Below, piece by piece: positions 1,569 through 33,537 of a DNA stretch of 33,537 nt. The DNA is from a virus (taxonomy: Duplodnaviria > Heunggongvirae > Uroviricota > Caudoviricetes). The stretch lies in the IMG/VR virus record IMGVR_UViG_2734482570_000003. One strand, given 5' to 3'. Below the pieces are notes generated by a model, which saw only the letters and a program-made list of their open reading frames with translations, searched no databases and was not told the DNA's origin. The stretch's first letter is position 1; each line of letters opens with the position of its first letter. The translations under genes and the position numbers were made by a program.

Positions 1569-4126
1569 CGTCCACCTCCGGAGAACAGACCACCATCGCG
1601 CATCTGCCCGGTCACAACATCCATTGCCGCCTTACGGGCTACGTCATAAACAGCCTTCAGTGCCTGTGGCCCTATCTGACCGTTCGTGCCGTCGTTGTTA
1701 ATCACCACATGGTTATTCTGCTCAAACGTCCCGGACGCCTGCGACCGGCTGTCTGCCATGCTGCCCGGTGTACCGACATAACCGCCGGTGGCATAGCCGC
1801 GCATCAGCCGGTAGAGATTCCCCACGCCAATCCGGCTGGTTGCCTCCTTCGTGAAGACAAACTCACCACGGTGAACAATCCCCGCTGGCTCATATTTGCC
1901 GCCGGTTCCCGTAAATCCCCCGGTCGCAAAATGGAATTTCGCCGCAGCGGCCTGAATGGCTGTACCACCTGACGCTGATGCGCCACCACTGGCAGCACCG
2001 CCAATGGCGCTGCCGATACTCCCGACAATCCCCACCATTGCCTGCTTAAGCAGAATTTCTGTCATCATGGACAGCACGGAACGGGTGAAGCTGCGCCAGT
2101 TCTGTTCACTGCCGGTCAGCATCGCCGCCATATTCTGTGCAATACCATCAAAGGTCTGCGTGGCAGCACTTTTAACCTGCGACATACTGTCCGTGGCGCT
2201 CTCTTCCCACTCACTCCAGCCGGACTTCAGGCCTGCCATCCAGCTCCCGCGAAGCTGGTCTTCAGCCGCCCAGGTCTTTTTCTGCTCTGACATGACGTTA
2301 TTCAGCGCCAGCGGATTATCGCCATACTGTTCCTTCAGACGCTGTTCCGTGGCTTCCCGCGCTGCCTGCCGGTCAGTCAGCCCCCGGCTTTTCGCATCAA
2401 TGGCGGCCCGTTTTGCCCGTTGCTGCTGTGCGAATTTATCCGCCTGCTGCGCCAGCGCATTCAGGTGCTCCTGATACGTGACCTTATCGCCAAGTGCAGC
2501 CAGCTGGCGCTTGTACTCCAGCGTCTCGTCTTTATGCGCCAGCAGGGATTTCTCCTGTGCAGACAGCTGGCGACGTTGCGCCGCCTCCTCCAGTACCGCG
2601 AACTGATTCTCCGCCTTCCACAAATCCCGGCGCTGCTGGCTGATTTTCTCATTCGCTCCGGCATGCTTCTCCAGCGTCCGGAGTTCTGCCTGAAGCGTCA
2701 GCAGGGCAGCATGAGCACTGTCTTCCTGACGATCGCCCGCAGACACCTTCACGCCGGACTGCTTCGGCTTTTTCAGCGTCGCTTCATAATCCTTTTTCGC
2801 TGCCGCCATCAGCGTGTTGTAATCTGCCTGCAGGATTTTCCCGTCTTTCAGTGCCTTATTCAGTTCTTCCTGACGGGCGGTATATTTCTCCAGCGGCGTT
2901 TGCAGGCGTTCGTAAGCCTTCTGCGCCTCTTCGGTATATTTCAGCCGTGACGCTTCGGTATCGCTCTGCTGCTGCGCATTTTTGTCCTGTTGACTCTGCT
3001 GCTCAGCCTTCTTTCGGGCGGCTTCAAGCGCAAGACGGGCCTTTTCACGATCATCCCAGTAACGCGCCCGCGCTTCATCGTTAACAAAATAATCATCCTT
3101 GCGCAGATTCCAGATGTCGTCTGCTTTCTTAAACGCAGCCTCTGCCTTAATCAGCATCTCCTGAGCGGTATCAGGACGACCAATATCCAGCACCGCATCC
3201 CACATGGATTTGAATGCCCGTGCTGTCCTGTCTGCCCAGGTCTCCAGCGTGCCCATGTTCTCTTTCAGGCGGCGGGTCTGGTCATCAAACCCTTTCGTTG
3301 CGGCCTCGTTCGCCGCCTGCAATGCCCCGGCTTCATCGCCGGAACGCTGCAACTGAGCAACATACGCAATCTGCTCCGCCGTCACGTTATGGAACTGGCG
3401 TGCCATCGCCGTCAGCCCCGACGTCGGGTCTGTGGTCAGCTTCCCGAAGGCTTCAGCGACCTTGTCCACCTCCACGCCGGATGCAGAGGAGAAACGCGCC
3501 ACACTCTGGCTGATGGACGCAATCTGAGCCTCACCGCTTACCCCCGCCTTAACCAGTGCGCTGAGTGACTCGCTGGTCTGGTTAAACGTCAGCCCTGCCG
3601 CCTGCCCGGCTCTGGACAGGACCAGCATGCGATCTGCCGTCAGTCCCGCCTGATTGCCGGAAAGGACCAGCGTTTTGTTGAAATCGGACAGGGTTGAGTT
3701 GCCCTGATACCAGGCATACGCCAGCGCACCGGTCGCCACCGCCAGCGAGGTGGCCCCCACCATCGGCAGGGTGATCGCACCGGCAAGCCCCCTGAACATG
3801 GGGATCATCCCGCCGAAGGAGTCCTTAACCTGCCCCCCCTGTTGCAGCAGGATCAGCCACGGACTTTGCCCGCCTGCAAGCTGCGTGGCCACGTCGGTGA
3901 ACTGTGCAGGCAGCATACGCATGGCGGCTTTATACTGCCCGACGGAAATCCCCGCTTTCTGTGCAGCCAGCGCCTGTCGGCTCAGCGACTGTTCAACGAC
4001 TGCCGCTGTTTTTTTCGCATCACTTTCCGTACCGGAAAAATGACGCCTGACTCTGGCCATCTGCTCGTCAAATCTGGCCGCATCCAGACTCAAATCAACG
4101 ACCAGATCGCCTACCGGTTCAGCCAT
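1565..4126 (-). CDS. H: Tail tape measure protein H
   Basis: 853 aa, Ala/Gln-rich coiled-coil middle, Gly-rich C-terminus; same length as lambda gpH. Confidence 0.95.
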   Translation of the reverse strand: MAEPVGDLVVDLSLDAARFDEQMARVRRHFSGTESDAKKTAAVVEQSLSRQALAAQKAGISVGQYKAAMRMLPAQFTDVATQLAGGQSPWLILLQQGGQVKDSFGGMIPMFRGLAGAITLPMVGATSLAVATGALAYAWYQGNSTLSDFNKTLVLSGNQAGLTADRMLVLSRAGQAAGLTFNQTSESLSALVKAGVSGEAQIASISQSVARFSSASGVEVDKVAEAFGKLTTDPTSGLTAMARQFHNVTAEQIAYVAQLQRSGDEAGALQAANEAATKGFDDQTRRLKENMGTLETWADRTARAFKSMWDAVLDIGRPDTAQEMLIKAEAAFKKADDIWNLRKDDYFVNDEARARYWDDREKARLALEAARKKAEQQSQQDKNAQQQSDTEASRLKYTEEAQKAYERLQTPLEKYTARQEELNKALKDGKILQADYNTLMAAAKKDYEATLKKPKQSGVKVSAGDRQEDSAHAALLTLQAELRTLEKHAGANEKISQQRRDLWKAENQFAVLEEAAQRRQLSAQEKSLLAHKDETLEYKRQLAALGDKVTYQEHLNALAQQADKFAQQQRAKRAAIDAKSRGLTDRQAAREATEQRLKEQYGDNPLALNNVMSEQKKTWAAEDQLRGSWMAGLKSGWSEWEESATDSMSQVKSAATQTFDGIAQNMAAMLTGSEQNWRSFTRSVLSMMTEILLKQAMVGIVGSIGSAIGGAASGGASASGGTAIQAAAAKFHFATGGFTGTGGKYEPAGIVHRGEFVFTKEATSRIGVGNLYRLMRGYATGGYVGTPGSMADSRSQASGTFEQNNHVVINNDGTNGQIGPQALKAVYDVARKAAMDVVTGQMRDGGLFSGGGR

Positions 4127-19752: not shown

Positions 19753-19766
19753 TCCGTGACCAGTCA
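19753..19766. repeat. Palindrome family B CGTGAC-CA-GTCACG (copy 1 of 3)
   Basis: Perfect 6-bp inverted arms with a 2-bp centre, immediately upstream of the RBS of the 19503..19745 gene. Confidence 0.5.
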
Positions 19767-20090
19767 CGCTTTGAGCGCAAGTTTCAGCCTCGTGGTTGTA
19801 AGGTGGCATGACCCTTCGCCATCAAAAATGCATTCTGAAACAGGCATTTTTTGACCACATCGCGGGCAAGTAGTAGATAGCTGCTTCTGCAGCTCCTTAT
19901 AGTTTTTCCTGATCAGCAAACCAATGACTTCGTTCTCCGAATATGGAACTCGCCCTGGTCTACGCAATACACAAATTTCCCCCAACATACGTAACTCGTC
20001 AGGTTCTAGAATCCAGTCCCGTCTTGATGTGCCTTCCTTCTTCAACCGTTCCCTGCGTCTCCTTTGCCGTTCTGCCGGTGTCAGCGCCAT
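19764..20090 (-). CDS. Hypothetical protein with Arg-rich N-terminus and Cys cluster (zinc-ribbon-like)
   Basis: 108 aa; CPRCGQKMPVSECIFDGEGSCH. Confidence 0.45.
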   Translation of the reverse strand: MALTPAERQRRRRERLKKEGTSRRDWILEPDELRMLGEICVLRRPGRVPYSENEVIGLLIRKNYKELQKQLSTTCPRCGQKMPVSECIFDGEGSCHLTTTRLKLALKA

Positions 20091-25216: not shown

Positions 25217-28200
25217 ATGACATTAAACGATTTCTATGCGGATCGCTTTGGCAGCGATCCGTTCTCGCTAATTGAAGCAGCACGGGATGAACTAACCGAG
25301 CTGGCACAGATGGCTGGTATCAACTGGCCTGCCTGTTCCGACAACATCCAACTCAACCCTCGCGGGGGGGTTGAGCGTTACTCTTCATACAATAAAACAT
25401 CTCCAGAAGCTCTCGAAAAGAGCCTGAAAGGACGCGTAGAAATTTACTCCAGGCTGGAACACAGCAAAGGGATTGATTACCCGTTCATTAACTTCGTCCA
25501 TAAAGGCAGCGATGCTGGCTCATGGAGCGGTTTCTCCTTCCTGTTTTCTGAATATCGCCGTGAGCAACAACGGAATAATGCGACCGTGGTCGCACAACCG
25601 GAAGAAGAACGGGAAAGAATAGAACGTCAGGCCGAAGCACGTCGTCGCCGTGAAGAACAAAAACGAATTAATGACCTGAAAAACAACCAAATGGACCATG
25701 AACGTTTGCTGGGATGGCTGGCATTCCACAGCGCGTGGGAACATGCTCCGGCTGAAGACGGCTCATGGCCATATGCGATTAAAAAAGGTATTCGTGACGT
25801 TTTTAGTTCATGTGATGTGCGTCGCGTGACCAGTCACGACAGTGCGAAATGGAGCCGGGGGCCAACCACATATATGGCTATCCCTCTGGCTCACCTGGAC
25901 AGTCGTTATGATGGTCGTATTGTGGGTTGGCAGCGAATCGACAAACAAGGTGGGAAATACCAGACCAGCGCAGTAACCAGCGGCGATTTCGTCGGTGCCT
26001 GCTTTGTTATCGGTGAGCTGAAAGGGGCGCAAAACATCGCTGTTACAGAAGGTTTTGCTACTGGTGCATCCATCTGGCTTGCCACGAAAAAAGATAAACG
26101 CTTTGACGCTGTGGTTGTCGCTGTATCCGCTAACAACATGGTTCATGTTGTGGAACAACTGGTAAACATGTACCCGGCGGCAAAAATCACCTGCGCACTG
26201 GATAATGACCGGAAATCTGCCACAGAAGGAAAAGGGAATACCGGCCTGCGGACTGGCTATGAAATCTTATCGAAATTCAACGATGTCCGCTGCGTCTATC
26301 CAACTTTTGAAGACGATCCGCAAATGGAGTGCAGTGACTTCAACGACCTGCACAAACTACGTGGACTTCGTGAAACAGCACGTCAACTATTTGCAACAGC
26401 AAACCGCCTGAAAACCGGTACTGATTTGCTATCTCTGACGCTCAACCGCCTGAAGACAATTAAGCGGGATAACCGTCGTACTTTTGCCAAAGAGCTGCTG
26501 AGAGCGGTGGATATTGGCATGCTAACCTGTCCGGTTCCTAACAGTCCGTCAGATTTATTTAACATGTTCTGCATCGTTCTGCGTGAAATGGGACTGGAAA
26601 ATATCTATCGTGCTACGGTAAAAGACCACATTGCCCGTCGCCTGAATAAAAAGTGCCGTATTGCCCAGGCTCCGCGCTCTTTCAGCGAACGCATAACTGA
26701 TCCCAATAAACGACCTCAACATATCACCTATAAGCGTTTTGAAACTTCGGTAATGACCGATGATGTCCTGAAGTACGTGCAATCACTACAGGGGATAGTC
26801 ATCGTCCGTGCTGGTATGGGTTCCGGCAAATCTACTGGATTGTTACGACCGTTAATGCATAGCTCAGAACGTGGTATCTCTGTTGCTCACCGTGTCTCCC
26901 TTATTGGTGGCCTGTGGGAAATGATGACAGAAGGAAAAGGTGTAAAAGCCGATATCCTGCACTATCAGGATCCTGGCTATCAGGAAATGGCTCCATACGC
27001 CAGTAAACTGACCATCTGCATAAACTCGATTGTTAAAAACTGCTGGCAACCGTTGATGCGCCAGCACGACTATTTTGGCTTTGACGAGGCCACACAAGGG
27101 CTACGTGCCGTTCTTTCCGGTCGGGCTATGGAAAACCCGGTGGCTGTATTCAATACGCTAATTGACGCGCTGGCCAGAACGGAACAACACCCAATCATGG
27201 TGGATGCTGATGCGAACGATCTGCTGGTTGACCTGGCTGAACTAGCTATGAAACGCCGTGAAGAACTAGGTTTACCGGCATGGCTGCAGATCCACGTAAT
27301 TGAATTACCTGTTGATGTTCGCAACCGCGAAACAGGTGAGCCAATCCGGGTTTTTTATACAGAAAAAGATCGCATCATGACCGAGGTGGTGAAAGCTGTA
27401 TCGGATGGCGAAAAAATCATGTTGGCCACCGACAGCTCCACCTTTGCAGAAGATGTGACAGCCACCCTGAGAATGCATTTTCCTGGTAAGAAATTTCTGT
27501 GTGTAAACCAGAAAAACAAACCAGAGCCAGAAGTTGAAGCATTTACCAATCAACCGAAAAAGATGGTCAAAAAATACGACGGCCTGATTTATAGCCCGTC
27601 TATTTCATCCGGCGTGTCGATTGAGCAAAAACATTTTGACCGTCATTTCGGCATGTTCTGTGGTGAAGTTGTACCCAGCGACGCAGTGCAAATGCTACGC
27701 CGCGACCGTACAGCAAAAGAATTTATTATCGGCTTTGATAAAGCTCGTGCAAAACGTGAAACTGACCCGCAAAAAATAGAACGAGCATTCGCCCAGGCAT
27801 TGCTTGCTACTGCAGGTATGAACGGTGAACTGACGGATGTCGTTTTCGATGGCGACCGTATATCAATGGGGGTGGCCAATACCGACTTTACCAGGATGAA
27901 AATTAAAGCAGCCGCAATTGAAGCGTCTGCACGTAACGACTACGCCAGCAACATGATCTGCATCATGCACAGCGACGGTTATAAGATATCGCCGCTGGCC
28001 ACCGATTATGCTGCAAATGATATCGGTAAAGATCTGCGTAAAGAAGCGCGGGATATTGTGTGGGAACAGACACTGGATCTGCATCTCAATACAGAAACTC
28101 CACAAGAATCAGAGCGTGAAGAACTGCTAAAAAAACGCGCGCTAACGCTTGAAGAACAGGCAAAACTTGTCCGCTGGGATATTGAGAACGAACTGAAACT

Positions 28201-30125: not shown

Positions 30126-30152
30126 ATTGTGATGACTGTTACAGGAGATAAA

Positions 30153-30440
30153 GTGAAGAGTTTTATTTTTGTTTTATGTTTTGCCTTTTCTGCTGCAGTT
30201 TATGCCCAGGAAGATAGCATTTCTGTTATTAACTCATCAGCGGAGCTTGCATGTAAAAATAATCCCGATGCTGCATCAAAAGAGTCATGCAAAGAGCTGC
30301 TCCTTTCGACGGCTGCTTTTGCTTCTGAAAATGCAAAATTTTATTCAGCCTTTTGTCGCGGCTATGTTAAGGACGAAGATAAAGAAAAATGTGATGATGC
30401 CGGTAAGTTAGTTAGGTATTTCCAATCTCTTAATCAGTAA
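30153..30440 (+). CDS. Small secreted Cys-containing protein (signal peptide)
   Basis: AGGAG RBS then GTG start; signal peptide MKSFIFVLCFAFSAAVYA / QEDS; four Cys in the mature part. Confidence 0.55.
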   Translation: MKSFIFVLCFAFSAAVYAQEDSISVINSSAELACKNNPDAASKESCKELLLSTAAFASENAKFYSAFCRGYVKDEDKEKCDDAGKLVRYFQSLNQ

Positions 30441-30501: not shown

Positions 30502-30521
30502 CCCCGTGACTGGTCACGGGG
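30502..30521. repeat. Palindrome family B, extended copy CCCCGTGAC-TG-GTCACGGGG (copy 3)
   Basis: Perfect 9-bp arms; core CGTGAC-TG-GTCACG is the reverse orientation of the other two copies; just upstream of the putative small-RNA promoter. Confidence 0.5.
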
Positions 30522-30542
30522 TAAAATGTCTTTGCAAATTAT

Positions 30543-30572
30543 TGACGTGTGCGTCGTTTTGACGGTAAAGTT
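30543..30572 (+). promoter_or_regulatory. Putative sigma70-type promoter (TTGACG - 18 bp - TAAAGT) for the leader or small RNA
   Basis: Hexamers read by eye; spacing approximate. Confidence 0.3.
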
Positions 30573-30574
30573 TA

Positions 30575-30653
30575 CTCCGCTACGGTAAATCCCGTAGCCG
30601 GGCGTAGGAACCCGAGTAAATGAAGCGCACAACACGCGCCAGCGTGTTTTTTT
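30575..30653 (+). ncRNA. Candidate small regulatory RNA / leader transcript (c4-type antisense RNA analogue)
   Basis: Non-coding stretch with hairpin GCTACGG-TAAATC-CCGTAGC and intrinsic terminator ACACGC-GCCA-GCGTGT plus T6 (30632-30653); GCGTAGGAAC at 30602 recurs at 30768 in the downstream leader. Confidence 0.3.
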
Positions 30654-30816
30654 GTGTGTAAAATCTGCGTACACCAAATTTATGGTGGCTCAGATGGGGC
30701 AGCTTTTAGCTGGCCGGTTTCTTCGTTTACCGGTATTCCTACCCCCGTCTGGGCTACCGCCATATAGAGCGTAGGAACTCTGGTGGTAGCACGACCAATT
30801 AAACGGAGTGCATACC

Positions 30817-30981
30817 ATGTTCAAATTCAAATTTGCGGCAATCGTTCGCACAGACAAAAAGTCACACATCCATCATCTTTCCACCATCGCGTCATCTGAA
30901 CGGGAAGCTCGTCGCCAGTTCGCCAGCCGGTTTGTCCTGGTATTGTCTGCCCGTATTCCGGTGCGCGAGGTGGCTGCATGA
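30817..30981 (+). CDS. Small protein, first gene of the putative antirepressor-type operon
   Basis: 54-aa ORF, below the track threshold; GGAG RBS about 9 nt upstream; stop overlaps the next start (ATGA). Confidence 0.45.
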   Translation: MFKFKFAAIVRTDKKSHIHHLSTIASSEREARRQFASRFVLVLSARIPVREVAA

Positions 30982-31211
30982 ATCAGGTAAAAATGAACAC
31001 TGTTGGCCTGCTGGAATCGTTGGATGAACGTCTGGCTCAGGTCTATGCGCTCGTATCATCAGCCCATCGGACAATCTCCAGTTGTGAGGCGTCGATTTAT
31101 CTCTCAGAAGCAGGGAAACTCCTTCAAATTGCGTGTGAGCTAACACACGAAGCACAGGGTTATTCAGCATCGCTCTCGTCGCAATTGCTGCACGATAAGG
31201 AGGCTGAATGA
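30978..31211 (+). CDS. Hypothetical protein, second gene of the operon
   Basis: 77 aa; translationally coupled on both sides by ATGA overlaps. Confidence 0.5.
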   Translation: MNQVKMNTVGLLESLDERLAQVYALVSSAHRTISSCEASIYLSEAGKLLQIACELTHEAQGYSASLSSQLLHDKEAE

Positions 31212-31372
31212 GCGCGTTAGCAGTATTTTCCTTTCAGGAAGAGCATCAGGTTCGTGTAGTGATGATTAACGGCGAACCGTGGTTTGTTGCATCTGATGTG
31301 TGTATGGCGGCGGGTATTGATTCTACGGCCATCAGAAAGTTGGATGAGGACGAAAAGGGGCAGGCGAGGTAG
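31208..31372 (+). pseudogene. Truncated antirepressor (Bro-N / AntA N-terminal domain only)
   Basis: 54-aa ORF MSALAVFSFQEEHQVRVVMINGEPWFVASDVCMAAGI... carries the Bro-N signature (GEPWFVA-DVC) but stops after about 54 codons, where full antirepressors run about 180-250 aa. Confidence 0.5.
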
Positions 31373-31384
31373 ACCACACAACAA

Positions 31385-31407
31385 GGCACCGATAATTCGG
31401 TGCCTTT
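31385..31407. terminator. Hairpin between the convergent ant-type operon and telN (possible bidirectional terminator)
   Basis: GGCACCG-ATAATT-CGGTGCC followed by TTT on the plus strand; T-rich on the other side. Confidence 0.45.
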
Positions 31408-31417
31408 ACCGTATGCT

Positions 31418-33325
31418 TTATCCGAAATATGTCAGCCATGCTAACTGCATTGCTGATATAGGGCTGTTTGCACTGCCGGACCAAGCATAATTCTGGCCAT
31501 TATAATGAAACTCAACAACGTATGAGCCATCACCAATATTTCTCACAGGCTTAAATACCGGCTTAGATACAGGTGAAGAAGGCGCGGGCGGTTGCTGTTC
31601 TTCTACGCTCTCTTCCTCTTCCTCTTCCTCTTCCTCTTCCTCTATCTCAATTTCGTCGTCATCCAGATCGTCATCCTCTGATAATTCATCCGTCTGTTCA
31701 GGTATTGCTTCCAGCTCTTCTTCGTCAGGCATAACGATTTCTGGAGAATCTATTTTCAGCTGCCATTGTCCATTTTCGCCAACAAATTGCCCCAGAGCAT
31801 CAGCAGCAAACTCCAGGTATCGACTAATCATTGTAGGGCTAAATTTGAATGCTCTTAGAGTGCTGTTCGTGATTTTTATAGAGGGGTCCTGCTCTACCAG
31901 CTGCTTAACTGTGTTATGCAGACGAACTCCGGCATCTCCTCTGGCGAATCCTGGCATTTCGTCATCAAGCTGCTGCAATGCTTCCAGCCTGGTATTTTCG
32001 TTTCCAGTATTTGGCCTCCATGTCTTTGAGAAGTTGGCCAGCTTGAATTGCTTATAGTGTAATTGAGTGTTTTCATCGTCATGGCCTAAAATTTCCATAA
32101 AGAAAACATCCTCATCTACGTTTTTCCAACGAGGATCTACGCGGAAAAACATTTCATACGCAATACGGGCATAAATAGCACGACTATCTTTATAAACACG
32201 GCGGTCATCTTTGAAAAATGATTTAACCCACGGGTTAAAAGCCTTTGCTAATATGGCATTAATCCGTCCGTTTTCAGAGCGTGTGTCGTTATCTCCATAA
32301 CCTTTAACGACATCATCAAAATCAGATGCTGCTGGGCATGAGCGAAGTACATTTATTAAATAAACAAATGTTTTTGCTTCGCATAATGTATATATTTTTC
32401 TGGTTATATCATCAGAAGTTCTTTTTTTTGCTTGGCCTAAAAAATCAACGGTATACTTACCAGAAACAGTAAATGTACCTTGATACATAATCTCAATCAT
32501 TCGTCTTCCTGACAATGCAGCAAGTGCAAATGCCAAAGGAGCCATACCTGAACGAGTGTTTAGATTATTTAATGTAGCAGGGCTATTTATAATATCGTAA
32601 ATAGCTTGCATATATTTAGGGTAATCAATGACCACCACGTTACGTTTCTTATTGTGCAGAACGTCTGCCCATCGTTGCTGGATAGATGCGCGTTCGGCAG
32701 GGCTTAGTTGAAGATGATAGAGAATCTCATGGTTAACTTTTAGCTGATTCAACTCCTCAAGTAAGGCAGATCCTTGCTGTAGTAATTTATATAAATAATC
32801 GCGCTTATCTTTCCAGTTATCGCTAGTTAAATCAGAAATGGCGAATTGCCACTCTTTATATTTATTTGATAATTTTAATAACTTATTATGACTTTTGTTA
32901 TCACCAATTCTGATATTAGATAAATCTTCTGATAAAGGGAGAATTAATTTTAATTTTGCCTGTAAAGCTGACATTCTCTGGCGAATATCGGCAGCAGGTA
33001 GAGAAAGCCATGATAATAGCTCCTCATTATATAAAGGATACTTTTCAGATAGGCGATGTATATTTTTTTCAAAGCTATGATGAAGTTTATCATCAAACCG
33101 TTTTCTGGCCCTGCTCATATAGGCATTGAATGTGTTGGCTGTAATTCTTTTTTCTAATCCTTTCCCCCTAAACTTTCGCTTGTCATTAAATAATGCATTT
33201 TTAAATTTTAATGCAACAGCTTTTATTTTTTTTGTTTTTTCCCCTTGAGGACGGTCAGAGTTATCTATTGACTCAACATCGCTAACAAGTGAGTTTATTA
33301 ATTCACCGATTTTTACTTTGCTCAT
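31418..33325 (-). CDS. telN: Protelomerase (telomere resolvase) TelN
   Basis: 635 aa, close to the 631 aa of N15 TelN; long acidic linker; adjacent to the telomere palindrome. Confidence 0.85.
   Translation of the reverse strand: MSKVKIGELINSLVSDVESIDNSDRPQGEKTKKIKAVALKFKNALFNDKRKFRGKGLEKRITANTFNAYMSRARKRFDDKLHHSFEKNIHRLSEKYPLYNEELLSWLSLPAADIRQRMSALQAKLKLILPLSEDLSNIRIGDNKSHNKLLKLSNKYKEWQFAISDLTSDNWKDKRDYLYKLLQQGSALLEELNQLKVNHEILYHLQLSPAERASIQQRWADVLHNKKRNVVVIDYPKYMQAIYDIINSPATLNNLNTRSGMAPLAFALAALSGRRMIEIMYQGTFTVSGKYTVDFLGQAKKRTSDDITRKIYTLCEAKTFVYLINVLRSCPAASDFDDVVKGYGDNDTRSENGRINAILAKAFNPWVKSFFKDDRRVYKDSRAIYARIAYEMFFRVDPRWKNVDEDVFFMEILGHDDENTQLHYKQFKLANFSKTWRPNTGNENTRLEALQQLDDEMPGFARGDAGVRLHNTVKQLVEQDPSIKITNSTLRAFKFSPTMISRYLEFAADALGQFVGENGQWQLKIDSPEIVMPDEEELEAIPEQTDELSEDDDLDDDEIEIEEEEEEEEEEESVEEQQPPAPSSPVSKPVFKPVRNIGDGSYVVEFHYNGQNYAWSGSANSPISAMQLAWLTYFG
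31609..31640 (-). repeat. Hexanucleotide (CTCTTC)n coding repeat giving a poly-Glu tract in TelN
   Basis: Plus strand ctcttcctcttcctcttcctcttcc; encodes EEEEEEEEEEEE. Confidence 0.8.
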
Positions 33326-33495: not shown

Positions 33496-33537
33496 ACATA
33501 ATTCCCCATTATACGCGCGTATAATGGGGAATTATGT
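33496..33537. other. Telomere resolution site (telRL/telO-type palindrome), truncated by the window end
   Basis: Perfect 42-bp palindrome ACATAATTCCCCATTATACGCG|CGCGTATAATGGGGAATTATGT, dyad centre between 33516 and 33517, running to the last base of the window. Confidence 0.8.

What the first reader, a model, noticed from the sequence alone, without database searches (positions are those of the whole stretch)
30502..31407. Antirepressor-type locus: promoter, candidate small RNA, three coupled small ORFs, the last a truncated Bro-N gene
A non-coding stretch with a hairpin and a strong intrinsic terminator (30575-30653) precedes three ORFs linked by ATGA overlaps. The third carries a clear Bro-N/AntA N-terminal signature but stops after about 54 codons, just before a hairpin and the convergent telN gene. 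The layout resembles antisense-RNA-controlled antirepressor loci such as P1 immI. The element GCGTAGGAAC occurs both in the candidate RNA and in the mRNA leader, and a leader element at about 30733 is complementary to it. The truncation suggests the antirepressor was lost or replaced while its regulatory cassette remained.
Basis: partly seen in the sequence, partly recalled or inferred. Interest (0 to 1): 0.6.

Follow-up and report, generated by a model that had tools for sequence, protein, structure and literature searches.

The report
N15-type RNA-controlled anti-immunity operon
This is the well-known antisense-RNA-controlled "anti-immunity" operon of an N15-like linear phage-plasmid of E. 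coli, intact except for a common 738-bp deletion in its third, accessory gene, so it is ordinary rather than new.

Summary
The window is an N15-like linear phage-plasmid of E. coli, and 30540-31410 is its immA (secondary immunity) operon, the counterpart of P1 immI and the P4 immunity region.

Rfam places a C4/CA-type antisense RNA at 30678-30764 (73.6 bits, threshold 45). It places an IsrK-type terminated leader at 30579-30652 (62.5 bits, threshold 50).

Two C4 elements, a' and b', pair with b1-a1 just before the terminator. They also pair with b2 and a2, and a2 covers the icd Shine-Dalgarno. In 38 distinct related leaders these elements co-vary three ways.

The ORFs are icd, antA and antB. 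AntA, reported as the N15 antirepressor, is intact. The truncated Bro-N gene is antB, whose function is unknown. It lost 738 bp relative to phage YDC107_1. The same deletion allele occurs in 13 of 17 complete E. coli genomes that carry this region.

Verdict: an already known system. Observation confirmed, interpretation partly right, low interest.

The parts
30542..30571 (+). Promoter of the operon (N15 Pa equivalent): -35 TTGACG 30542-30547, 18-nt spacer, -10 TAAAGT 30566-30571. Predicted start at about 30578-30579.
   Evidence: Consensus scan. Both hexamers are conserved in 38 distinct related leaders, and only the third position of the -10 varies. The Rfam IsrK match starts at 30579. Promoter activity was not tested.
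30579..30653 (+). Terminated leader RNA (IsrK-like, about 75 nt). It comprises a 5' hairpin (30579-30598), the b1 hairpin (30599-30614, with b1 GUAGGAA at 30604-30610 in the loop), a1 GUAAAUGAAG (30616-30625), and an intrinsic terminator (stem 30631-30648, T-run to 30653).
   Evidence: Rfam isrK scores 62.5 bits against a threshold of 50. c4-a1b1 scores 34.3 against 46.7, below threshold. Fold energy is -27.2 kcal/mol, z = -2.5. Terminator scan. The 5' hairpin is 100% paired, with 4 of 7 pairs compensatory.
30678..30764 (+). C4/CA-type antisense RNA (homologue of N15 CA RNA, P1 c4 and P4 CI). It has a long closing stem and two inner hairpins. a' CUUCGUUUA (30721-30729) lies in a hairpin loop. 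b' UUCCUAC (30736-30742) lies in the single-stranded linker.
   Evidence: Rfam C4 scores 73.6 bits against a threshold of 45, with a full-length match. MFE is -44.4 kcal/mol, z = -5.6, and 0 of 200 shuffles folded as well. The closing stem is 100% paired in 38 sequences. N15, pG749_3 and YDC107_1 give the same hit at the same position. The region is 77.5% identical to the P4 cI region over 109 nt.
30765..30816 (+). mRNA target region. The b2 hairpin spans 30765-30782, with b2 GUAGGAA at 30771-30777 in the loop. A conserved hairpin (30783-30818) has a2 UAAACGGAG (30800-30808) in its loop. a2 includes the icd Shine-Dalgarno GGAG (30805-30808).
   Evidence: Fold. The b':b2 helix is 100% paired in 38 leaders, with 5 of 7 pairs changed on both sides. 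a':a2 forms at least 6 contiguous bp in all 38.
30817..30981 (+). icd: 54-aa Icd-like cell-division inhibitor, the first cistron.
   Evidence: NCBIfam NF033153 scores 66.6 bits against a cutoff of 25. The protein is nearly identical to the N15 Icd part of gp32. It is 54 aa in 45 of 47 related IMG/VR loci examined and 57 aa in the other two (L061, L062).
30978..31211 (+). antA: 77-aa homologue of the N15 AntA antirepressor. Its ATG overlaps the icd stop (ATGA).
   Evidence: 63% identity to N15 gp31 and 96% to pG749_3. phrog_6301 at 1.7e-36 and phrog_10889 'anti-repressor' at 1.1e-18. Always intact at 74-77 aa, with a -4 overlap, in 47 IMG/VR loci. The function is taken from PMC4488713.
31162..31209 (+). 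Hairpin that sequesters the antB Shine-Dalgarno (AGGAGG 31196-31201) and start codon. It is a translational-coupling device.
   Evidence: Inverted repeat I3, 18-nt arms, 78% complementary. Fold energy is -22.1 kcal/mol, z = -2.3. The coupling function is inferred.
31208..31372 (+). antB remnant: the first 50 codons of a Bro-N protein fused to 4 codons of former intergenic DNA (…DEDEKG|QAR*). The deletion junction lies between 31359 and 31360, within a GGG microhomology.
   Evidence: Pfam Bro-N positions 1-41 of 96. Alignments to YDC107_1, pG749_3 and N15. The exact 738-bp gap relative to YDC107_1 is L002 4409-5146.
31383..31406 (.). 10-bp perfect hairpin between the converging operon and telN. 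It is a shared transcription stop and was retained by the deletion.
   Evidence: Inverted repeat I7. Fold energy is -17.8 kcal/mol, z = -6.7. It is present downstream of full-length antB in YDC107_1 and pG749_3.

Best explanation
The region is the immA-type secondary-immunity (anti-immunity) operon of an N15-like linear phage-plasmid.

A constitutive-looking promoter at 30542-30571 starts transcription at about 30579. Most transcripts probably stop at the intrinsic terminator (about 30653), giving a roughly 75-nt IsrK-like leader RNA that carries sites b1 and a1. Read-through transcripts contain the 87-nt C4/CA RNA (30678-30764), which by analogy with P1, P4 and N15 is cut out of the leader.

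The exposed a' and b' elements of that RNA pair with b2 (in a hairpin loop) and a2 in the mRNA. a2 covers the icd Shine-Dalgarno, so pairing blocks icd translation. Expression of antA and antB is blocked with it, because the three cistrons are coupled through ATGA overlaps and an SD-sequestering hairpin.

The same a'/b' elements pair even better with b1-a1 immediately upstream of the terminator. This second site either lets C4 act on the nascent leader (the termination control described for P4 CI RNA) or lets the short leader RNA titrate C4 (the Gifsy-1 IsrK model).

When repression is relieved, Icd and the small antirepressor AntA are made. AntB has been destroyed by a 738-bp deletion that spread in E. 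coli phage-plasmids.

Shown here: the homology, the structures, the complementarities and their covariation, and the deletion. Inferred: RNA processing, the direction of regulation, and the protein functions.
For: - Identity of the element: 100% match to E. coli plasmid pB16EC0268-3, with relatives annotated with protelomerase and CyRepA1 replication protein. The gene order is the same as N15 gp33 / terminator / gp32 (icd) / gp31 (antA) / gp30 (antB) / telN.
- RNA homology: C4 at 73.6 bits and isrK at 62.5 bits, both above their gathering thresholds, and the only two Rfam hits in the whole window. N15 itself gives the same two hits at the equivalent places.
- Structure: the C4 fold has z = -5.6, and its helices are 98-100% paired across 38 leaders.
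- Pairing: a 30-nt, 77% complementary stretch links 30596-30625 with 30721-30750. Cognate duplex energies average -34.0 kcal/mol upstream and -26.4 downstream, against -21.8 and -20.3 for non-cognate pairs.
- Covariation: 38 distinct leaders carry 5 b types and about 7 a types. In every one, b' matches b1 and b2 over at least 7 bp, a' matches a1 over at least 8 bp, and a' matches a2 over at least 6 bp. The b':b2 helix is 100% paired with 5 of 7 pairs compensatory. The b1:b' helix is 92.9% paired with 5 of 7 compensatory. No shuffle out of 500 reached the observed covariation score.
- a2 includes the GGAG located 8 nt before the icd ATG.
- Proteins: Icd, AntA, Bro-N fragment.
- Deletion.
- Literature: N15 immA comprises icd, antA and antB, with AntB function unknown and a separate SOS antirepressor AntC (PMC4488713). 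IsrK is a terminated leader that acts in trans on its own read-through mRNA, is called a structural homologue of P4 seqA, and has a processed downstream RNA (PMC4825925).
Against: - No transcript data exist for this element. Processing of the C4 RNA, the efficiency of the terminator and the sign of regulation are taken from homologues.
- The primary N15 papers (Ravin et al. 1999; Mardanov & Ravin 2007) could not be read here, so the details of the N15 mechanism rest on secondary citations and my memory.
- The Rfam c4-a1b1 model scores below its threshold (34.3 against 46.7).
- Column-based counts for the a helices are only about 65% paired, because MAFFT misregisters that variable segment. The register-free count is what supports them.
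- The MFE of the whole leader pairs b1-a1 with a'-b' in cis. The free C4 fold is therefore not the only possible conformation.
Confidence: 0.85

Rival explanations
1. The roughly 80-nt terminated RNA (30575-30653) is the regulatory antisense RNA, and it targets a leader element at about 30733. The operon is an orphan regulatory cassette because its antirepressor (the Bro-N gene) was lost.
For: The short RNA is real in homologues: IsrK is a detected sRNA that acts in trans on its own read-through transcript (PMC4825925), and the Rfam isrK hit is above threshold. The Bro-N gene is truncated.
Against: The element at 30733 lies inside a full-length C4 antisense RNA match, which has the far stronger fold (z = -5.6 against -2.5). 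In P1, P4 and N15 that RNA is the repressor. antA, reported as the N15 antirepressor, and icd are intact here and in all 47 IMG/VR loci examined, while antB is lost repeatedly (PMC4488713). The b2 and a2 sites at the icd ribosome-binding site co-vary with C4, not with the short RNA.
Confidence: 0.08
2. Termination-only control. The C4/CA RNA acts mainly on the nascent leader. It binds b1-a1 right next to the terminator and increases premature termination at 30631-30653 (P4 CI-like). The pairing at the icd ribosome-binding site is secondary.
For: b1-a1 is the better complement (-33.8 against -26.1 kcal/mol here; means -34.0 against -26.4). It abuts the terminator and co-varies with C4 in all 38 leaders. 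P4 CI RNA causes premature termination by pairing with seqA and seqC (as summarised in PMC4825925). From memory, N15 CA RNA was reported to act through premature termination.
Against: No alternative anti-terminator structure that C4 binding would remove could be identified in the leader folds. a2 overlaps the icd SD in every relative, and b2 shows perfect covariation, which argues for a selected function at the ribosome-binding site.
Confidence: 0.3
3. The locus is an inert, decaying remnant in this lineage. The antB deletion marks loss of function of the whole anti-immunity system.
For: One of the three genes is destroyed. The deletion allele is the commonest one in complete E. coli genomes (13 against 4).
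Against: The promoter, terminator, C4 fold, all six pairing elements, icd and antA are intact and match their cognate partners perfectly. The same deletion allele sits behind three different, internally consistent specificity types. Carriers have full sets of head, tail, lysis, repressor and replication genes.
Confidence: 0.05

Closest known systems
Phage-plasmid N15 immA locus (Pa promoter, cA/CA RNA, icd, antA, antB)
   Same: It holds the same position between the repA-side genes and telN, and the same order of terminator, C4-type RNA, icd, antA and antB with ATGA overlaps. The Rfam hits are the same. Icd is nearly identical and AntA is 63% identical. The leader is 78% identical.
   Different: The a'/b' recognition sequences differ: window UUCCUAC and CUUCGUUUA against N15 GUUGAGA and CUUCUUGUA. 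Cross-repression with N15 is therefore not expected. antB is cut to 54 codons by a 738-bp deletion.
P1/P7 immI (c4 antisense RNA, icd, ant1/ant2)
   Same: Both have a C4-family RNA embedded in the leader of an icd-antirepressor operon. In both, two short elements pair with duplicated targets up- and downstream, and the downstream target lies at the icd ribosome-binding site. In P1 and P7 the specificity is set by these short sequences, which gives heteroimmunity (PMC12197685 summary of Citron & Schuster). The Rfam family is the same.
   Different: The antirepressor here is the small N15-type AntA plus a Bro-N protein, not P1 Ant1/Ant2. An intrinsic terminator sits between the upstream targets and the RNA. 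No DNA-level similarity to P1 was found by blastn.
Satellite phage P4 immunity (CI RNA with seqA/seqB/seqC)
   Same: There is direct DNA similarity to the P4 cI region: 77.5% over 109 nt, covering window 30682-30790. The layout of upstream target, processed RNA and downstream target is the same.
   Different: P4 controls replication genes, not an icd-ant operon. P4 has no telN context.
Salmonella Gifsy-1 isrK-orf45-anrP locus
   Same: The leader 30579-30652 matches the IsrK model over its full length, above threshold. In both, a terminated short RNA and a read-through mRNA come from one promoter, a processed RNA lies downstream, and an antirepressor is expressed by translational coupling (PMC4825925). 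The predicted cis pairing of the leader with the C4 region resembles their 'structure A'.
   Different: The upstream coupled ORF here is icd rather than orf45. The antirepressor and its downstream effects (AntQ) differ. The activating role of the short RNA is untested here.
P22 immI (sar RNA and ant)
   Same: A small antisense RNA limits antirepressor translation.
   Different: There is no homology. sar is transcribed from the opposite strand of the ant leader, whereas the RNA here is same-strand, trans-acting and processed-type.

Membership tests
C4 antisense RNA family (Rfam RF01695: P1 c4, P4 CI, N15 CA) | Sequence-plus-structure match at or above the curated gathering score | tested here: met
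   73.6 bits against 45, model positions 1-87 of 87, at 30678-30764 (+).
C4 antisense RNA family (Rfam RF01695: P1 c4, P4 CI, N15 CA) | Lies on the sense strand inside the leader of the operon it controls, between two copies of its target | tested here: met
   The promoter is at 30542-30571, b1-a1 at 30604-30625, the RNA at 30678-30764, and b2 and a2 at 30771-30808. All are on the + strand upstream of icd.
C4 antisense RNA family (Rfam RF01695: P1 c4, P4 CI, N15 CA) | Two exposed elements (a', b') complementary to the targets, with the downstream target at the ribosome-binding site of the first ORF | tested here: met
   The helices are 7-10 bp long and a2 includes the GGAG of icd. Three-way covariation is seen in 38 leaders.
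C4 antisense RNA family (Rfam RF01695: P1 c4, P4 CI, N15 CA) | Mature RNA produced by processing (RNase P) of the leader transcript | not testable with these tools
   No transcript data. Only a tRNA-acceptor-like long closing stem is seen.
IsrK / c4-a1b1 leader (Rfam RF01394, RF03163) | Covariance-model match above threshold | tested here: inconclusive
   isrK scores 62.5 against 50 (met). c4-a1b1 scores 34.3 against 46.7 (not met).
IsrK / c4-a1b1 leader (Rfam RF01394, RF03163) | Primary transcript that ends at its own intrinsic terminator, with partial read-through into the operon | tested here: inconclusive
   A promoter-like site and a terminator are in the right places, and the terminator is nearly invariant in 38 relatives. 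Termination and read-through were not measured.
IsrK / c4-a1b1 leader (Rfam RF01394, RF03163) | Short RNA acts in trans to activate translation of the read-through mRNA | not testable with these tools
   Only the complementarity of b1-a1 to the C4 region was shown.
N15 immA operon | Gene order icd-antA-antB, translationally coupled, next to telN | tested here: met
   Synteny with N15. ATGA overlaps are present in the window and in all 47 IMG/VR loci.
N15 immA operon | Icd-like and AntA-like proteins | tested here: met
   NF033153 at 66.6 bits. 63% identity to N15 gp31 and a match to phrog_10889.
N15 immA operon | Full-length AntB (about 260-aa Bro-N protein) | tested here: not met
   The remnant is 54 aa. 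The 738-bp deletion is defined against YDC107_1.
Bro-N domain proteins (Pfam PF02498) | Complete Bro-N domain | tested here: not met
   Only profile positions 1-41 of 96 are matched. Full-length relatives match 1-96.
P1 immI | P1-type Ant1/Ant2 antirepressor downstream of icd | not tested
   No P1 sequence was retrieved. The downstream genes here are N15-type antA and antB.

The most novel reading that the evidence does not exclude
The a and b recognition modules of the C4-type RNA and their two target sets reassort freely among N15-like phage-plasmids of Escherichia and Klebsiella. One a type occurs with four b types. This amounts to a two-key combinatorial RNA code that would decide which co-resident or superinfecting relatives can silence each other's anti-immunity operons.

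The upstream b1-a1 site is always the stronger complement. It may make the terminated leader an IsrK-like decoy that sets the threshold of the switch.

antB is an accessory gene that has been lost at least five separate ways, while icd and antA are never lost.
Probability: 0.35. Interest if true: 0.4.

Novelty: already known. Interest (0 to 1): 0.15.

Why it matters
It matters mainly for annotation.

- The non-coding stretch holds two curated RNA families.
- The small middle ORF, not the Bro-N fragment, is the likely antirepressor.
- The 54-aa 'BRO family protein' in many RefSeq plasmids is a deletion remnant.
- Several database CDS calls that overlap the C4 RNA are spurious.

The survey of specificity types could help predict cross-immunity among N15-like phage-plasmids, which are common in clinical E. 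coli and Klebsiella. That would extend a principle already known from P1 and P7.

Tried and rejected
1. Hairpin-1 loop (30585-30592) as the a1 target. It is complementary to C4 in the window, but the longest helices average only 4-5 bp across the 38 leaders and do not co-vary. The real a1 is 30616-30625.
2. An IsrJ-like or other known RNA in the 130 bp downstream of full-length antB that the deletion removed. There is no Rfam hit in N15, pG749_3 or YDC107_1. The miRNA hits in those loci are the telRL palindromes.
3. The palindrome at 30502-30521 as a terminator or a LexA box. It has no U-run, and CTGT-N8-CTGG does not fit the LexA consensus. It recurs elsewhere in the window and looks like a protein site.
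4. An anti-terminator alternative to the 30631-30648 hairpin. None was seen in the folds.
5. Pfam, NCBIfam, PADLOC and PDB searches for AntA gave nothing beyond the PHROG hits.
6. Reading the primary N15 papers (PMC1951935, PMC94163) and the phiKO2 paper (PMC355964). None is held.
7. A search for a publication on phage PhiR46_1 found none.
Full report
**What the window is.** The last 5.5 kb of the window is 100% identical to E. coli plasmid pB16EC0268-3 and 97-99% identical to about two dozen other E. coli and Shigella plasmids. These are annotated with a protelomerase, a CyRepA1 replication protein, an Icd-like protein and a 'BRO family protein'. A closely related plasmid carries full sets of lambda-like head, tail and lysis genes, plus genes annotated as an XRE-family regulator (the likely CB-type repressor), a Cro/CI-family regulator and antiterminator Q. 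The nearest named phages are PhiR46_1 (92.8%), YDC107_1 (89.9%) and, over the first two thirds of the region, N15 and Klebsiella N15-like phages (about 79%). The window is therefore an N15-like linear phage-plasmid. The finding sits between the repA-side genes and telN, exactly where N15 has gp33, an annotated terminator, gp32, gp31 and gp30. The literature calls this N15 locus immA, the secondary immunity region. It is described as an operon of icd, antA (the antirepressor) and antB (function 'not elucidated'). A separate SOS-controlled antirepressor, AntC, is responsible for induction (PMC4488713; repeated in PMC10612081).

**Checking the observation.**
- The leader folds into two hairpins followed by an intrinsic terminator, with stem 30631-30648 and seven T.
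- The three ORFs are 30817-30981, 30978-31211 and 31208-31372, joined by ATGA overlaps.
- The third ORF matches Pfam Bro-N only over profile positions 1-41 of 96. N15 gp30 and the pG749_3 homologue match the entire profile in proteins of 264 and 260 aa.
- GCGTAGGAAC occurs twice in the window (30602 and 30769). The expected count is 0.04, and 0 of 100 shuffles gave two copies.
- The only reverse-complement copy of its core is at 30736-30742.

**What the non-coding part is.** Rfam gives exactly two above-threshold hits in the whole 33.5-kb window. One is C4 antisense RNA at 30678-30764 (73.6 bits, gathering score 45, full-length). The other is IsrK at 30579-30652 (62.5 bits, gathering score 50). 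The related c4-a1b1 target motif scores 34.3 at 30566-30618, below its threshold of 46.7. N15, pG749_3 and YDC107_1 give the same pair of hits at the equivalent places. In N15 this is where the old records placed the 'cA secondary immunity repressor'. The window's C4 region is also 77.5% identical over 109 nt to the cI region of satellite phage P4.

The 87-nt RNA folds into a long closing stem with two inner hairpins (-44.4 kcal/mol, z = -5.6, 0 of 200 shuffles as good). Its helices are 98-100% paired in 38 distinct relatives.

**The pairing scheme.** C4 exposes a' (CUUCGUUUA, 30721-30729, hairpin loop) and b' (UUCCUAC, 30736-30742, linker).
- Upstream, b1 (GUAGGAA, 30604-30610, in a hairpin loop) and a1 (GUAAAUGAAG, 30616-30625) form a nearly continuous complement. 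This is a 30-nt, 77% complementary inverted repeat that ends 5 nt before the terminator stem.
- Downstream, b2 (30771-30777) sits in a hairpin loop. a2 (UAAACGGAG, 30800-30808) sits in the loop of a conserved hairpin and includes the icd Shine-Dalgarno GGAG, 8 nt before the ATG at 30817.

**Testing the scheme on relatives.** I used 11 named relatives and then 38 distinct leaders from phage records and IMG/VR contigs.
- There are five b types and about seven a types.
- In every leader, b' matches both b1 and b2 over at least 7 bp, a' matches a1 over at least 8 bp, and a' matches a2 over at least 6 bp. Different-type combinations average 3.7-6.3 bp.
- On the alignment, the b':b2 helix is 100% paired with 5 of 7 pairs changed on both sides. 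The b1:b' helix is 92.9% paired with 5 of 7 compensatory. No shuffle out of 500 reaches the observed covariation score, and sliding the partner by 1-3 columns drops pairing from about 92% to 36-50%.
- The column-based figures for the a helices are poor (about 65%) because MAFFT misregisters that variable stretch. The register-free count is the relevant one.
- Cognate duplex energies are -34.0 kcal/mol upstream and -26.4 downstream on average, against -21.8 and -20.3 for non-cognate pairs.
- The loop of the first hairpin, which might have been taken for 'a1', does not co-vary.

**How it most likely works.** The best-supported mechanism is that of the P1 c4 / N15 CA / P4 CI class.
1. Transcription starts at about 30579 from a conserved TTGACG-18-TAAAGT promoter.
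2. A fraction of transcripts reads through the terminator.
3. The C4-type RNA is released from the leader. This step is inferred from homologues.
4. It pairs with b2 and a2, occluding the icd ribosome-binding site.
5. icd, antA and antB overlap by ATGA, and the antB Shine-Dalgarno and start codon are locked in a hairpin (31162-31209). Blocking icd should therefore silence the whole operon.

The upstream b1-a1 site is under the same three-way constraint and is the better complement, so it is functional. Two roles are possible and I cannot separate them here:
- C4 may bind the nascent leader and raise termination. This is the P4 CI mechanism as summarised in PMC4825925, and, from my memory, also what was proposed for N15.
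- The abundant terminated leader may bind C4 or the C4 segment of the read-through mRNA and so activate translation. This was demonstrated for Gifsy-1 IsrK, which that paper calls a structural homologue of P4 seqA (PMC4825925).

The MFE of the whole leader does pair b1-a1 with a'-b' in cis, like the 'structure A' of that paper.

**The genes.** ORF1 is Icd (NF033153, 66.6 bits). ORF2 is 63% identical to N15 AntA and matches phrog_10889 'anti-repressor'. It has no Pfam, NCBIfam, PADLOC or PDB match. ORF3 is the antB remnant.

**The deletion.**
- Aligned to YDC107_1, whose antB shares the same N-terminal allele, the window lacks exactly 738 bp (L002 4409-5146).
- The missing stretch runs from codon 51 of antB to about 110 bp past its stop. 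The junction is at 31359|31360, within a GGG microhomology.
- The reading frame runs four codons into former intergenic DNA (…DEDEKG|QAR*).
- The hairpin shared with telN is retained.
- PhiR46_1 and 8 IMG/VR loci have the identical junction.
- Among complete RefSeq E. coli genomes, 13 carry the junction and 4 carry a full-length gene.

In 47 IMG/VR loci, icd and antA are always intact. antB is also lost in other ways: a 55-aa allele, a 129-aa allele, a frameshifted 39-aa allele, complete absence, and replacement by a long ORF of 218-400 aa that resembles an IS200/IS605 TnpB (not verified).

The same deletion allele sits behind three different leader specificity types, and one leader type is found with three different antB alleles. 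This region therefore recombines often.

The gene reported as the antirepressor is intact. What was lost is a dispensable accessory gene.

**Comparison with known systems and novelty.** The locus meets the tested defining features of the C4 RNA family and of the N15 immA operon, except for a full-length AntB. It meets the IsrK model but not the c4-a1b1 threshold. RNA processing and regulatory direction cannot be tested with these tools. The system type has been known since the work on P1/P7, P4 and N15. Identical sequences are already in public records, and both RNA motifs are curated in Rfam (Weinberg et al. 2010, PMC2864571, lists both the c4 antisense RNA and c4-a1b1). I therefore rate it 'already known'. 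The only mildly new points are the exact definition of the antB deletion and its prevalence, the placement of a1 next to the terminator, and the free reassortment of a and b specificity modules among relatives.

**Limits.** No expression data exist for this element. The primary N15 papers could not be read, so the functions of AntA and CA RNA rest on secondary sources and memory. The IMG/VR loci are not independent samples of evolution, so the shuffle statistics overstate significance. The qualitative pattern, with five b types and about seven a types each matched at three sites, does not depend on those statistics.

Noticed in passing
window 30502-30521; also 19754-19769 and 25824-25839: A perfect palindrome CCCCGTGAC-TG-GTCACGGGG lies about 20 bp upstream of the operon's -35. 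Its core CGTGACTGGTCACG recurs at two other places in the window: inside repA, and between two minus-strand ORFs. That is 5 strand matches against 0.18 expected, with 0 of 100 shuffles reaching 5. It is conserved in N15 and in the 10 relatives whose aligned segments reach it. It has no U-run, so it is probably a protein-binding site. From memory only, it may be one of the dispersed N15 SopB centromere repeats.
   Followed up: partly
window 33496-33537: The window ends in a 21+21-nt perfect palindrome (…CCCCATTATACGC|GCGTATAATGGGG…) just beyond telN. From memory it resembles the N15 telRL/telO core, the protelomerase target. It produced spurious miRNA hits in Rfam, as did the equivalent sites in N15 and YDC107_1.
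   Followed up: partly
window 30129-30440: The gene just upstream of the operon encodes a 103-aa protein that looks to have an N-terminal signal peptide (phrog_26765, function unknown). It is annotated 'Spackle exclusion protein' in PhiR46_1. pG749_3 has an unrelated 270-aa gene at this position and N15 has gp33, so this looks like a variable accessory-gene slot.
   Followed up: no
L059, L061, L062 (IMG/VR loci), about 1900-3100: In three related contigs antB is replaced by a long ORF (218-400 aa) that begins MLKRQAFKFQLRPN… or MLYAIRVRLYPN… It looks like an IS200/IS605-type TnpB, but this was not verified. A plasmid hit (OY754439.1) is also annotated with an IS200/IS605 transposase in this region.
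   Followed up: no
L001 3745-4035 (N15 gp32), L015 413-715 (cA CDS), L008 356-490 (KpLi5): Several database CDS annotations overlap the C4/CA RNA gene: the 96-aa N15 gp32, the old 'cA secondary immunity repressor' CDS, and a second 'Icd-like protein' in KpLi5. They are probably miscalls of the RNA gene.
   Followed up: partly
window about 31600-31645 (minus-strand telN): A CTCTTC-type tandem repeat encodes a run of about 12 glutamates near the C-terminus of the protelomerase (…EIEEEEEEEEEEESVEE…). Whether its length varies among relatives was not checked.
   Followed up: no
related loci L016-L060 and named phages: The identical 738-bp antB deletion allele is linked to three different C4 specificity types, and one identical leader is linked to three different antB alleles. 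This indicates frequent recombination between the leader and antB.
   Followed up: partly
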